From the human T2T-CHM13v2.0 reference genome, Homo sapiens: a DNA stretch of 64,000 bases. Every line of letters begins with the position of its first letter. Position 1 is the stretch's first letter. A program made the position numbers and the translations under genes. The stretch lies in assembly GCF_009914755.1 (NCBI RefSeq), contig NC_060931.1, one strand, 5' to 3'. Positions 56,676 to 62,280 of the stretch are shown here, piece after piece. Under the pieces are notes generated by a model. That model searched no databases. It was not told where the DNA came from and was given only the letters and a program-made list of their open reading frames with translations.

Positions 56676-59600
56676 GGTAAGGGCAGTTCAAAGATGCCCA
56701 AGTAGGAACAGCTCCAGTCTATAGCCCCCAGCAGGCGCAATGCAGAAGATGGATGATTTCTGCATTTCCAACTGAGCTTTGAAGAGTGTAGTGGTTCTCC
56801 CAGCATGGAGTTTGAGATCTGAGACTGGGCAGACTGCCTCCTCAAGTGGGTCCCTGACTCCCAAGTAGCCTAACTAGGAGGCATCTCCCAGTAGGGGCTG
56901 ACTGGCACCTCGTGCAGCCGGGTGCCCCTCTGAGACAAAGCTTCCAGAGGAAGGATCAGGCAGCAACATCTGCCATTCTGCAATATTTGCTGTTCTGCAG
57001 CCTCCGCTGGTGATACCCAGGCAAACAGGGTCTGGAGTGGACCTCCAGCAAACTCTAACAGACCTGCAGCTGAGGATCCTGACTGTTAGAAGGAAAACTA
57101 ACAAACAGAAGGGACATCCACACCAAAACCCCATCTGTACGTCACCATCATCAAAGACCAAAGGTAGATAAAACCACAAAGATGGGGAGAAAACAGAGCA
57201 GAAAAGCTGAAAATTCTAAGAATCAGAGCGCCTCTTTTCCTCCAAAGGAACGCAGCTCCTCACCAGCAAAGGAACAAAGTTGGATGGAGAATGACTTTGA
57301 TGAGTTGGCAGAAGTAGGCTTCAGATGATCGGTAATAACAAAATTCTCCAAGCTAAAGGAGGATGTTCGAACCCATCGCAAAGAAGCTAAAACCTTGAAA
57401 AAAGATTAGACGAAAGGCTAACTAGAATAAACAGCATAGAGAAGATCTTAAATGACCTGATGGAGCTGAAAACCATGGCATGAGAACTATGTGATGCATG
57501 CACAAGCTTCAGTAGCTGATTCAGTCAAGTGGAAGAAAGGTATCAGTGATTGAAGATCAAATGAATGAAATGAAGCGAGAAGAGAAGTTTAGAGAAAAAA
57601 GTAAAAAATGAACAAAGCCTCCAAGAAATATGGGATTATGTGAAAAGACCAACTCTACATCTGATTGGTGTACCTGAAGGTGACAGGGAGAATAGAACCA
57701 AGTTGGAAAACACTCTTCAGGATATCATCCAGGAGAACTTCCCCAACATAGCAAGGGAGCCAACATTCAAATTCAGGAAATTCAGAGAACACCACAAAGA
57801 TACTCCTCGAGAAGAGCAACCACAACCCCAACACACATAATCGTCTGATTCACCAAGGTTGAAATGAAGAAAAAAATGTTAAGGGCAGCCAGAGAGAAAT
57901 GTTGGGTTACCCACAAAAGGAAGCCCATCAGACTAACAGCAGATCTCCCTGCAGAAACCCTACAAGCCAGAAGAGAGTAGGGGCCAATATTCAACATTCT
58001 TAAAGAATTTTCAACCCAGAATTTCATCTCCAGCCCAACTAAGCTTAATAAGTGAATGAGAAATAAGATCCTTTACAGACAAGCAAATGCTGAGAGATTT
58101 TGTCACCACCAGGCCTGCCTTACAAGAGCTCCTGAAGGAAGCACTAAACAAACATGGAAAGGAACAACCGGTACCAGCCACTGCAAAAAGATGGAAATTG
58201 TAAAGACCATTGACACTATGAAGAAACTGCATCAACAAACGGGCAAAATAACCAGCTAGCATCATAATGACAGGATCAAATTCACACATAACAATATTAA
58301 CCTTAAATGTAAACGAACTAAATGCCCCAATTAAAAGACAGACTGGCAAATTGGATAAAGAGTCAAGACCCATTAATGTGCTGTATTCAGGAGACCCATC
58401 TCACATGCAGAGACACACATAGACTCAAATTAAAGGGATGGAGGAAGATCTAACAAGCAAATGGAAAACAAAAAGAGCAGGGGTTTCAATCCTAGTCTCT
58501 GATAAAACAGACTTTAACAAAGGTCAAAAGAGACAAAGAAGGGCATTACATAATAGTAAAGGGATCAATGCAACAAGAAGAGCTAACTATCCTAAATATA
58601 TATGCACCCAATACAGGAGCACCCAGATTCATAAAGCAAGTTCTTAGAGACCTAGAAAGAGACTTAGACTCCCACACAATAATAATGGGAGACTTTAACA
58701 CCCCACTGTCAACATTAGATCAATGAGACAGAAAGAGAACAAGGATATCCAGGACTTGAACTCAGCTCTGCACCAAGCAGACCTAATAGACATCTACAGA
58801 ACTCTCCACCCCAAATCAACAGAATATACATTCTTCTCAGCACCACATTGCATTGCACTTATTCCAAAATTGACCACACACTTGGAAGTAAAGCACTCCT
58901 CAGCAAATGTAAAATAACAGAAATTATAACAGACTCTCAGACCACAGTGCTATCAGAACTCAGGATTAAGAAACTCACTCAAAAACCGCTCAGCTACATG
59001 GAAACTGAACAGCTCCTGAATGACTACTGGGTACATAATGAAATGAAGGCAGAAATAAAGATGTTCTTTGAAACCAATGAGAACAAAGACACAACATACC
59101 AGAATCTCTGGGATACATTTAAAGCAGTGTGTAGAGGGAAATTTATAGCACTAAATGCCCACAAGAGAAAGCAGGAAAGATCTAAAATTGACACCCTAAT
59201 GTCACAATTAAAAGAGCTAGAGAAGCAAGAGCAAACACATTCAAAAGTTAGCAGAAGGTAAGAAATAACTAAGAGCAGAACTGAAGAAAATAGAGACACA
59301 AAAAACCCTTCAAAAGATCCATGAATATGGGAGCTGGTTTTTTGAAAAGATCAACAAAACTGATAGACCGCTAGCAAGACTAATAAAGAAGAAAAGAGAG
59401 AAGAATCAAATAGACGCAATAAAAAATGACAAAGGAGATATCACCACTGATCCCACAGAAATACAAACTACCATCACAGAATACTATAAACACATCTATG
59501 CAAATAAACTAGAAAATCTAGAAGAAATGGATAAATTCCTGGACACATACACCATCCTAAGACTAAACCAGGAATAAGTCAAATCCCTAAATAGACCAAT

Positions 59601-62280
59601 ACCAAGTTCTGAAATTGAGGCAATAATTAATAGCTTACCAACCAAAAAAAGTCCAGGACCAGATGGATTCACAGCCGAATTCTACCAGAGGTACAAGGAG
59701 GAGCTGGTACCATTCCTTCTGAAACTATTCCAATCAATAGAAAAAGAGGGAATCCTTCCTAACTCATTTTATGAGGCCAGCATCATCCTGATACCAAAGC
59801 CTGGCAGAGACACAACAGAAAAAGAGAATTTTAGACCAATATCCCTGATGAACATCGATGCAAAAATCCTCAATAAAATACTGGCAAACCGAATCCAGCA
59901 GCACATCAAGAAGCTTCTCCACCATGATCAAGTGGGCTTCATCCCTGGGATGCAAGGCTGGTTCAACATATGCAAATCAATAAATGTAATTCAGCATATA
60001 AACAGAACCAGTGACAAAAACCATACGATTATCTCAATAGATGCGGAAAAGGCCTTCAACAAAATTCAACAGCTGTTCATGCTAAAAACTCTCAATAAAC
60101 TAGGTACCAATGGGATGTATCTCAAAATAGTAAGAGCTATTTATGACAAACCCACAGCCAATATCATACTGAATGGGCAAAAACTGGAAGCATTCCCTTT
60201 GAAAACTGGCACAAGACAGGGATGCCCTCTCTCACCACTCCTATTCAACATAGTATTGGAAGTTCTGGCCAGGGCAATCAGGCAGGAGAAAGAAATACAG
60301 GGTATTCAATTAGGAAAAGAGGAAGTCAAATTGTCCCTGTTTGCAGATGACATGATTGTATACTTAGAAAACCCCATTGTCTCAGCCCAAAACCTCCTTA
60401 AGCTGATAAGCAACTTCAGCAAAGTCTCAGGATACAAAATCAATCTGCAAAAATCACAAGCATTCTTATACACCAATAACAGACAAACAGAGAGTCAAAT
60501 CATGAGTGAACTCCCATTCACAACTGCTTCAAAGAGAATAAAATACCTAGGAATCCAACTTACAAGGGATGTGAAGGACCTCTTCAAGGAGAACTACAAA
60601 CCACTGCTCAATGAAATAAAAGAGGACACAAACAAATGGAGGAACATTCCATGCTCATGGGTAGGAAGAATCAATATCGTGAAAATGGCCATACTGCCCA
60701 AGGTAACTTATAGATTCAATGCCATCCCCATCAAGCTACCAATGACTTTCTTCACAGAATTGGAAAAAACTATTTTAAAGTTCAGATGGAACCAAAAAAG
60801 AGCCCACATTGCCAAGACAATCCTAAGTCAAAAGAACAAAGCTGGAGGCATCAGACTACCTGACTTCAAACTATTTTACAAGGCTACAGTAACAAAAACA
60901 GCACGGTACTGGTACGAAAACAGAGATATAGACCAATGGAACAGAACAGAGCCCCTGGAAATAATGCCACACATCTACAACCATCTGATCTTTGACAAAC
61001 CTGACAAAAACAAGCAATGGGGAAAGGATTCCCTATTTAATAAATGGTGCTGGGAAAACTGGCTAGCCATATGTAGAAAGCTGAAACTGGACCCCTTCCT
61101 TACATCTTATACAAAAATTAATTCAAGATGGATTGAAGACTTAAATGTTAGACCTAAAACCATAGAAACCCTAGAAGAAAACCTAGGCAATACCATTCAG
61201 GATATAGGCATGGGCGAAGACTTTATGACTGAAACACCAAAAGCAATGGCAACAAAAGCCAAAATTGACAAATGGGATCTAATTAAACTAAAGAGCTTGT
61301 GCACTGCAAAAGAAACTACCATCAGAGTGAACAGGCAACCTACAGAATGGGAGAAACTTTTTATAGTCTACCCATCTGACAAAGGCCTAATATCCAGAAT
61401 CTACAAAGAACTTAAACAAATTTACAAGAAAAAATCAAACCACCCCATCGAAAAGTAGGCAAAGGATGTGAACAGACACTTCTCAAAGGAAGACATTTAT
61501 GCAGCCAACAGACACATGAAAAAATGCTCATCATCACTGGCCATCAGAGAAATGCAAATCAAAACCACAATGAGATACCATCTCACACCAGTTAGAATGG
61601 CAATCATTAAAAAGTCAGGGAACAACAGGTGCTGGAGAGGATGTGGAGAAATAGGAACACTTTTACACTGTTGGTGGGACTATAAGCTAGTTCAACCATT
61701 GTGGAAGACAGTGTGGCGATTCCTCAAGGATCTAGACCTAGAAATACCATTTGACCCAGCCATCCCATTACTGGGTATATACCCAAAGGATTATAAGTCA
61801 TGCTGCTATAAAGACACATGCCCACGTGTGTTTATTGTGGCACTATTCACAATAGCAAAGACTTGGAACCAACCCAAATGTCCATCAATGATAGACTGGA
61901 TTAAGAAAATGTGGCACATATACACCATGGAATACTATGCAGCCATAAAAAAGGATGAGTTCATGTCCTTTGTAGGGACATGGATGAAGCTGGAAACCAT
62001 CATTCTGAGCAAACTATTGCAAGGACAGAAAATCAAACACTGCATGTTCTCACTCATAGGTGGGAATTGAACAATGAGAACACTTGGACATAGGGTGAGG
62101 AACGTCACACACCAGGGCCTGTCATGGTGTTGGGGGAGGGATAGCATCAGGAGATACACTTAATGTAAATGACGAGTTAATAGGTCCAGCACACCAACAT
62201 GGCACATGTATACAAATGTAATACACCTGCACATTGTGCACATGTACCCTAGAATTTAAAGTATAATAAAAAAATATATA
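56676..62280 (+). mobile_element. Near-full-length L1 (L1PA4-like) with a spliced 5'UTR (SpIRE), antisense to MAGI2 (called L1-B below)
   Basis: 18-bp TSD taattctt(c/t)aggaaatac at 56658-56675 and 62281-62298; 5'UTR junction actgag|ctttgaag; ORF1 and ORF2 fragments; L1PA4-type 3'UTR. Confidence 0.97.
59848..62070 (+). pseudogene. L1 ORF2 RT and C-terminal region; 536-aa and 200-aa ORFs in the same frame, separated by one TAG
   Basis: RT motifs [10 protein letters not shown] and [11 protein letters not shown] are intact; cysteine-rich [16 protein letters not shown]; stop at 61456-61458 (AAG TAG where the consensus has a Trp codon). Confidence 0.9.

What the first reader, a model, noticed from the sequence alone, without database searches (positions are those of the whole stretch)
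58620..61240. Further short conversion patches suggest repeated homogenisation of the L1 pair
Seen: both L1s share other apparently private variants. These are gacctagaaagagac (LERDL, consensus LQRDL; B about 58650, A about 40760), accatcctaagac...accaataccaagttctg (B 59551-59611, A 39805-39865), accatagaaaccctag (TIETL, consensus TIKTL; B about 61160, A about 38060) and gactttatgact (B about 61220, A about 38000). Patches spread over more than 3 kb between divergent stretches imply several events, possibly in both directions. The consensus states are recalled, not computed.
Basis: partly seen in the sequence, partly recalled or inferred. Interest (0 to 1): 0.7.

Follow-up and report, generated by a model that had tools for sequence, protein, structure and literature searches.

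The report
Patchy copying between neighbouring LINE-1 elements
Two old, back-to-back LINE-1 repeats in an intron of the human MAGI2 gene share short patches of rare mutations, most likely because DNA repair copied bits of the older repeat into the younger one, a known process that this locus shows clearly.

Summary
A (36,960-43,581, minus) and B (56,676-62,270, plus) differ by 11.0% outside the patches.

Two patches are real. At B 59,554-59,607 and B 61,092-61,228 the joint variant haplotypes occur only in A and B genome-wide, and A is B's best match among 30-57 other panel copies. The LERDL patch (B 58,642-58,655) is weaker: the variant is rare (23 of 1,321 copies), but similar two-site clusters arise in 21 of 409 control pairs.

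They show the direction: A into B. B-into-A transfer is unproven, because A's younger-looking states occur in 11-21 of 100 older-class copies. Several separate events are likely but not shown: the age contrast with the main tract depends on boundaries (Fisher p 0.014-0.25). B's intact target-site duplication excludes a net inversion.

Verdict: non-allelic gene conversion between neighbouring inverted repeats, a known process; a clear L1 example.

The parts
36960..43581 (-). L1 element A, full length, older clade (likely donor)
   Evidence: Self-BLAST, sequence ends, tree placement among older copies
56676..62270 (+). L1 element B, younger clade (likely acceptor), with spliced 5' UTR
   Evidence: closest relatives L048 and L034 share its 3' states
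56658..56675 (+). 5' target-site duplication of B
   Evidence: 17 of 18 bases match 62,281-62,298
62281..62298 (+). 3' target-site duplication of B
57704..58320 (+). Main homogenised tract in B, outside the finding's range: core 57,704-58,145 (4 of 436 differences), extension to 58,320 (6 of 171); partner in A about 41,104-41,711
   Evidence: many shared states absent from the panel
58611..58671 (+). Patch T1 in B (probable): 61-bp perfect match; older-class T at 58,642 and rare G at 58,655 (LERDL)
   Evidence: such clusters in 21 of 409 control pairs
40745..40805 (-). Partner of T1 in A
59501..59634 (+). Patch T2 in B (firm): rare 59,554 A, 59,558 T, 59,602 C; older-class 59,580 C, 59,581 A, 59,605 A, 59,607 T; 2 of 134 A/B differences
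39781..39914 (-). Partner of T2 in A
61075..61283 (+). Patch T3 in B (firm): 61,092 C, rare 61,165 G (TIETL) and 61,224 T; older-class 61,218 A and 61,228 A; 6 of 209 A/B differences
37945..38153 (-). Partner of T3 in A

Best explanation
The patches are likely non-crossover gene-conversion tracts in which short stretches of the older L1 (A) were copied into the younger, inverted L1 (B) after both had inserted, probably in more than one event. Shown: shared rare haplotypes confined to A and B; older-class states in B where its relatives have younger states; unconverted DNA between patches; B's intact TSD. Inferred: a break or stalled fork in B was repaired by synthesis-dependent strand annealing or template switching on A across a 16-23 kb loop on the same chromatid or its sister, copying roughly 15-210 bp each time without a crossover. 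Odds: conversion at T2 and T3 about 0.9; T1 about 0.7; at least two separate events about 0.6; any B-to-A transfer about 0.3.
For: Joint haplotypes are unique to A and B genome-wide. A is B's nearest copy in 150-bp windows at 59,500-59,649 and 61,100-61,249 (tied for first at 61,000-61,149), and ranks 18th-54th in the windows between them. A and B are sisters in trees of T1, T2 and T3 (ultrafast bootstrap 86, 92, 86; 100 combined) but not in the 2,022-column background tree (ranges chosen after the fact). T2 is a 7-site cluster, whereas 409 control pairs without B reach at most 3 sites. B carries older states at 59,580, 59,605 and 59,607 (0 of 8 B-like copies each) and 59,581 (2 of 8), and at 61,218 and 61,228, where its closest relatives L048 and L034 have G and T. 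B's TSD matches 17 of 18. Main-tract divergence of 4 of 345 is far below B's 5.8-7.4% distance from its relatives, so that tract post-dates insertion. Loop lengths are 16.3-23.1 kb.
Against: T1-like clusters arise in 21 of 409 control pairs. The age contrast between the main tract and the patches is not robust: Fisher p 0.11 with inner bounds, 0.014 with T1 widened, 0.25 with outer bounds. With inner bounds the patches (7 of 205) are only marginally below B's insertion-age divergence (p 0.051). The panel was ascertained (28 copies chosen for likeness to B 59,500-59,700, 29 for likeness to all of B), holds few true sisters of A, and its control pairs are not independent. No orthologous ape or monkey loci could be examined.
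Confidence: 0.8

Rival explanations
1. One repair event with a long heteroduplex or repeated template switching left all the patches at once (a discontinuous tract).
For: All polarised sites point the same way, A to B. Divergence within patches is statistically compatible with the main tract under two of three boundary choices.
Against: Patches are separated by 0.8-1.4 kb that is 9-10% divergent, with 10 and 26 retained diagnostic differences. A multi-kilobase heteroduplex at that divergence is expected to be rejected by mismatch repair (established knowledge, recalled). Point estimates for the patches (2.0-4.3%) exceed the core (0.9-1.2%) under all three boundary choices.
Confidence: 0.3
2. 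The 16-23 kb segment between the L1s inverted and re-inverted by crossovers, homogenising the exchange points.
For: Inverted L1 pairs do mediate inversions, over half longer than 10 kb (PMC2603318, passages), and inversions between inverted repeats recur (PMC3961182, title and passages). The core is about 99% identical over 436 bp.
Against: B's TSD is intact, so there is no net inversion. There is no reciprocal swapped block: only 4 isolated swap sites among 77 diagnostic sites, and the three of them inside the finding's range also occur in B-like copies. Two crossovers inside the same tract cannot be excluded.
Confidence: 0.12
3. The shared states are subfamily characters or chance homoplasy, and B is simply an intermediate or recombinant L1 lineage.
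For: Several 'private' bases are older-class states. B's shared 3' UTR states are subfamily states, also seen in L048 and L034. Four isolated shared sites look like chance.
Against: Joint haplotypes are found only in A and B. The 7-site cluster exceeds the control maximum of 3. B has 11 older states of 65 against 0-5 in 40 B-like or younger copies.
Confidence: 0.04
4. Assembly or polishing artefact: reads of one copy mis-assigned to the other.
For: The copies are close together and similar.
Against: Patches contain A/B differences (2 of 134 in T2, 6 of 209 in T3), and each element has unique flanks. T2T-CHM13 rests on long accurate reads (recalled). Not tested against another assembly.
Confidence: 0.03

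Closest known systems
Non-allelic gene conversion between neighbouring transposable elements (Alu; reviewed in PMC6598467, parts 1-2 of 4 read; PMC8230782, passages)
   Same: Mosaic of subfamily-diagnostic and shared non-diagnostic mutations between nearby copies; partial tracts; rate reported to depend on distance and identity.
   Different: Here the elements are full-length L1s 11% divergent, with loop lengths of 16-23 kb, beyond the roughly 10 kb range cited for Alu. The donor is the older element, whereas AluY to AluS was the commonest direction (40 of 64) in PMC8230782.
L1 recombination-mediated inversion (L1-RMI; PMC2603318, passages and Table S1 chr7 rows)
   Same: Two oppositely oriented L1s about 13 kb apart, in the reported size range.
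   Different: No net crossover: B's TSD is intact. Neither of the two chr7 rows of Table S1 (hg18 76.95 Mb, 0.8 kb; 65.25 Mb, 0.3 kb) matches in size.
Recurrent inversions between inverted repeats (PMC3961182, passages), including an L1PA3-flanked case (HsInv0341)
   Same: Inverted repeat architecture with a similar spacer length.
   Different: Those repeats are presumably far more alike over kilobases (inference); here only about 0.45-0.6 kb is near-identical, and no inversion is shown.
SpIRE97/622 spliced L1 (PMC5860796, passages and S1 Data chr7 entries)
   Same: B's 5' UTR reads through the same junction, about 100 nt from its 5' end.
   Different: B is more diverged than the listed examples and is not among the 10 chr7 entries seen.

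Membership tests
Non-allelic gene conversion tract | Local identity between paralogues above what their ancestry predicts | tested here: met
   A is B's nearest copy only in the tract windows; tree incongruence
Non-allelic gene conversion tract | Shared rare (non-diagnostic) variants confined to the pair | tested here: met
   Joint haplotypes only in A and B; T1 weaker
Non-allelic gene conversion tract | Non-reciprocal transfer with unexchanged flanks | tested here: met
   B has older states in the tracts and younger states on both sides; no reciprocal block; TSD intact
Non-allelic gene conversion tract | Unconverted ancestral state seen at the orthologous locus in outgroup species | not testable with these tools
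   No primate genomes are held
Repeated, bidirectional homogenisation (concerted evolution of the pair) | Tracts of different age | tested here: inconclusive
   Fisher p 0.11, 0.014 or 0.25 depending on boundaries
Repeated, bidirectional homogenisation (concerted evolution of the pair) | Transfers from B into A | tested here: inconclusive
   A's younger-type states occur in 11, 12 and 21 of 100 listed older-class copies; A is also younger-type at 4 sites where B is older-type
L1 recombination-mediated inversion | Chimeric elements with non-matching TSDs | tested here: not met
   B's TSD matches 17 of 18, and no B5'-A3' match was found; A's own TSD was not found at the score threshold
SpIRE97/622 | Intra-5'UTR splice junction in an integrated L1 with TSD | tested here: met
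   B 56,760-56,800 reads through the junction printed in the paper's S1 Data; TSD present
L1PA4 / L1PA7 subfamily labels | Match to Dfam or Repbase consensus diagnostics | not testable with these tools
   No consensus library held. Only relative age was shown. SpIRE97/622 is reported for L1PA1-PA6 only, which fits B being PA6 or younger.

The most novel reading that the evidence does not exclude
This pair is a self-reinforcing conversion hotspot. Repeated A-to-B copying between 11%-divergent inverted L1s has built a 99%-identical core that now primes a recurrent 16 kb inversion inside a MAGI2 intron. Such neighbour-biased L1 conversion would operate genome-wide beyond the 10 kb range known for Alu, biasing L1 ages and subfamily calls.
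Probability: 0.2. Interest if true: 0.55.

Novelty: new member of a known kind. Interest (0 to 1): 0.32.

Why it matters
It is a clear single-locus example of gene conversion between full-length human L1s that differ by 11%, with the donor identified and tracts mapped to base resolution. With ape orthologues, the number, timing and length of conversions between such divergent sequences could be measured directly. It also warns that neighbouring L1s can look chimeric or mis-dated. No functional effect on MAGI2 is indicated: the annotated exon (24,119-24,757) and enhancer lie outside the pair.

Tried and rejected
B-to-A transfer: 16 of 77 diagnostic sites have A in the younger state with B the same. 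The three tested genome-wide were common in older-class copies: 59,623 A in 11 of 100, 61,149 T in 12 of 100, 60,219 G in 21 of 100. A's exact 61,074/61,080/61,092 haplotype was in 0 of 100 listed, and its 60,219/60,255/60,285 haplotype in about 1 of 100, so reverse transfer is not excluded.

A patch at 60,191-60,340 (7 of 150 differences) is rejected: A is equally close to other younger copies there (median 5.3%). A widened T2 starting at 59,477 is rejected as a gap artefact, so the p = 0.013 was dropped. Isolated shared sites 59,248, 59,328, 60,894 and 60,955 are treated as chance. Shared 3' UTR states are subfamily states. A's TSD was not found at score 10 or more; a weak 11-of-14 candidate (43,595-43,582 versus 36,976-36,963) is visible by eye.

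Close sisters of A could not be added to the panel, so A's subfamily states remain uncertain.

Literature: MAGI2 + inversion + chimpanzee + breakpoint gave 0 papers. MAGI2 was absent from all 20 listed papers, from PMC3961182, and from 12 of 18 supplementary files of PMC6748972 (6 not searched). Searches for L1-L1 conversion listed no paper on this locus. Three papers asked for by id were not held (Khan 2006; Aleshin and Zhi 2010; a third recalled id). Supplements of the bioRxiv inversion catalogues (for example 10.1101/2021.12.20.472354, seen only as a listing) are closed and may list this locus.
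Full report
Setting. The window is an intron of MAGI2 (annotation supplied with the finding). Self-BLAST shows two long L1s in inverted orientation: A on the minus strand, about 36,960-43,581, and B on the plus strand, about 56,676-62,270, with 13,094 bp between their 5' ends. Over 5,564 aligned ungapped columns they are 89.1% identical, and outside candidate tracts they differ at 320 of 2,901 sites (11.0%). A near-identical stretch at B 57,704-58,145 lies just outside the finding; the finding concerns further patches 3' of it.

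Reference panel. Two genome searches gave 57 other L1 copies: 28 loci chosen for likeness to B 59,500-59,700 and 29 for likeness to all of B, projected onto B coordinates. In one search A itself was the best non-self hit (97%, next 95-96%; 40 of 1,652 candidates scored). A tree on background sequence puts B with a younger group and A with an older group. B is 5.8-7.4% from 14 relatives, and L048 and L034 share its 3' states. The panel is ascertained and contains few true sisters of A. Subfamily names are not assigned; any PA numbers are recalled.

Observation check. All four motifs are in both elements. G at 58,655 (LERDL) is in 23 of 1,321 matching copies. The 59,551-59,563 motif with its downstream partner occurs in 5 copies, and only A and B also have C at 59,602. 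G at 61,165 (TIETL) with its downstream motif occurs in 76 copies, roughly 0.6% if set against the 12,214-12,861 copies matching neighbouring motifs (different patterns, so approximate). Only A and B among the 76 also have T at 61,224. However, 59,605 A and 59,607 T are ordinary older-class states (937 copies), and so is 61,228 A (31 of the first 100 listed). Counts 'of 100' were made by eye on the first 100 matches in genome order.

More than chance. A and B share 11 states that are at most 5% in the panel, over 2,584 sites; 80 older x B-like pairs give a mean of 1.26 and a maximum of 5.1. One of the 11 is a gap artefact (59,477), two are older-class states poorly covered by the panel (61,218, 61,228), and four are isolated sites next to A/B mismatches, so the signal is carried by clusters. 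T2 (59,554-59,607) is a cluster of 7 informative sites, against at most 3 in 409 control pairs without B at a 60-bp linking distance. T3 (61,092-61,228) has five informative sites and a genome-unique haplotype. T1 (58,642 and 58,655) has two sites inside a 61-bp perfect match; clusters of that kind occur in 21 of 409 control pairs, so it is only probable. In 150-bp windows A is B's nearest copy at 57,700-58,349, 59,500-59,649 and 61,100-61,249 (tied at 61,000-61,149) but not at 58,600-58,749 (rank 36); A and B are sisters in trees of each tract but not of the background (tract ranges chosen after the fact).

Direction. Of 77 sites separating the older group from B-like copies, 39 have A old and B young, 15 both old, 16 both young, 4 swapped and 3 other. 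Both-old sites cluster in the tracts: five at 58,214-58,259, one at 58,642, four at 59,580-59,607. In T3, B has A at 61,218 and 61,228 where L048, L034 and nearly all younger copies have G and T, and C at 61,092 where 0 of 43 younger copies do. These indicate transfer from A into B. The both-young sites could mean B into A, but they are scattered, A is also young at 4 sites where B is old, and the three tested are common among older-class copies: 11, 12 and 21 of 100. A probably belongs to an intermediate subfamily. Reverse transfer is neither shown nor excluded; A's haplotype at 61,074/61,080/61,092 was absent from 100 listed copies.

Number of events. The tracts are discontinuous: 58,672-59,500 and 59,635-61,074 keep 10 and 26 diagnostic differences and are 9-10% divergent. 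Residual A/B divergence is 4 of 345 in the core against 7 of 205 in the patches with inner bounds (p 0.11), 13 of 304 with T1 widened (p 0.014), and 4 of 436 against 8 of 404 with outer bounds (p 0.25). Different ages are suggested but not established. Several short events are the simplest reading given that mammalian conversion tracts are usually a few hundred bp (PMC3961182, passage), but a single discontinuous event remains possible.

Crossover or not. B has an 18-bp TSD with one mismatch, and no cross-match between B's 5' flank and A's 3' flank was found. By the TSD criterion of PMC2603318 (passages) there is no net inversion, and there is no reciprocally swapped block. An inversion and re-inversion through the same tract would leave no trace and is not excluded.

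Mechanism. Shown: shared rare haplotypes, polarity A to B, intact flanks. Inferred: repair of breaks or stalled forks in B by strand invasion or template switching onto the inverted partner across a 16.3-23.1 kb loop, copying about 15-210 bp in the three patches and 440-600 bp in the main tract, without crossover, after B's insertion.

Comparison and novelty. Non-allelic conversion between neighbouring transposable elements is established for Alu, with elevated rates within about 10 kb, partial tracts and mosaics of diagnostic sites (PMC6598467, parts 1-2 of 4; PMC8230782, passages). This locus is a new member of that kind. It differs in being L1, 11% divergent, somewhat further apart, and old-to-young in direction. 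No paper on this locus turned up; subscription papers and bioRxiv supplements were not searchable. Interest is modest (0.32); ape orthologues would turn it into a direct measurement of event number and timing.

Noticed in passing
window 56,676-56,800 (+): B's 5' UTR is spliced at 56,776/56,777, matching the SpIRE97/622 junction printed in PMC5860796 S1 Data. It is not among the 10 chr7 entries seen, so it may be an unlisted, more diverged SpIRE.
   Followed up: partly
window 38,860-39,068: A carries a 209-bp inverted copy of its own 40,527-40,735 segment (94.7% identical; closer to A than to B at 14 versus 5 sites). It replaces a short piece of ORF2 in the reverse-transcriptase region, with a small repeated sequence at the junction. 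It looks like a templated insertion from break repair.
   Followed up: partly
window 59,991-60,130 (+): B differs from the majority of its relatives at 16 of 140 sites here versus 62 of 1,916 elsewhere (Fisher p 4e-5, window chosen after the fact) and does not match A. It may be a tract from a third donor or a mutation cluster.
   Followed up: partly
window 57,704-58,320 (+) and about 41,104-41,711 (-): The main homogenised tract: 4 of 436 differences in the core, many shared states absent from the panel, and older-class states in B at 58,214-58,259, so also A into B at least in part.
   Followed up: yes
G000 C8:77.63/77.71 Mb, C10:54.05/54.09 Mb, C23:73.67/73.74 Mb (one search hits): Among the 74 other copies with the rare TIETL G, 3 pairs lie within 100 kb (0.17 expected if uniform, 0.5 with local L1 clustering, p 0.015; not significant with stronger clustering). 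A weak lead for neighbour sharing of rare L1 variants.
   Followed up: partly
L008 (G000:C10:22139548-22142748): This panel copy reads younger-type at its first 24 diagnostic sites and older-type after that: a chimera, a nested insertion or a projection artefact.
   Followed up: no
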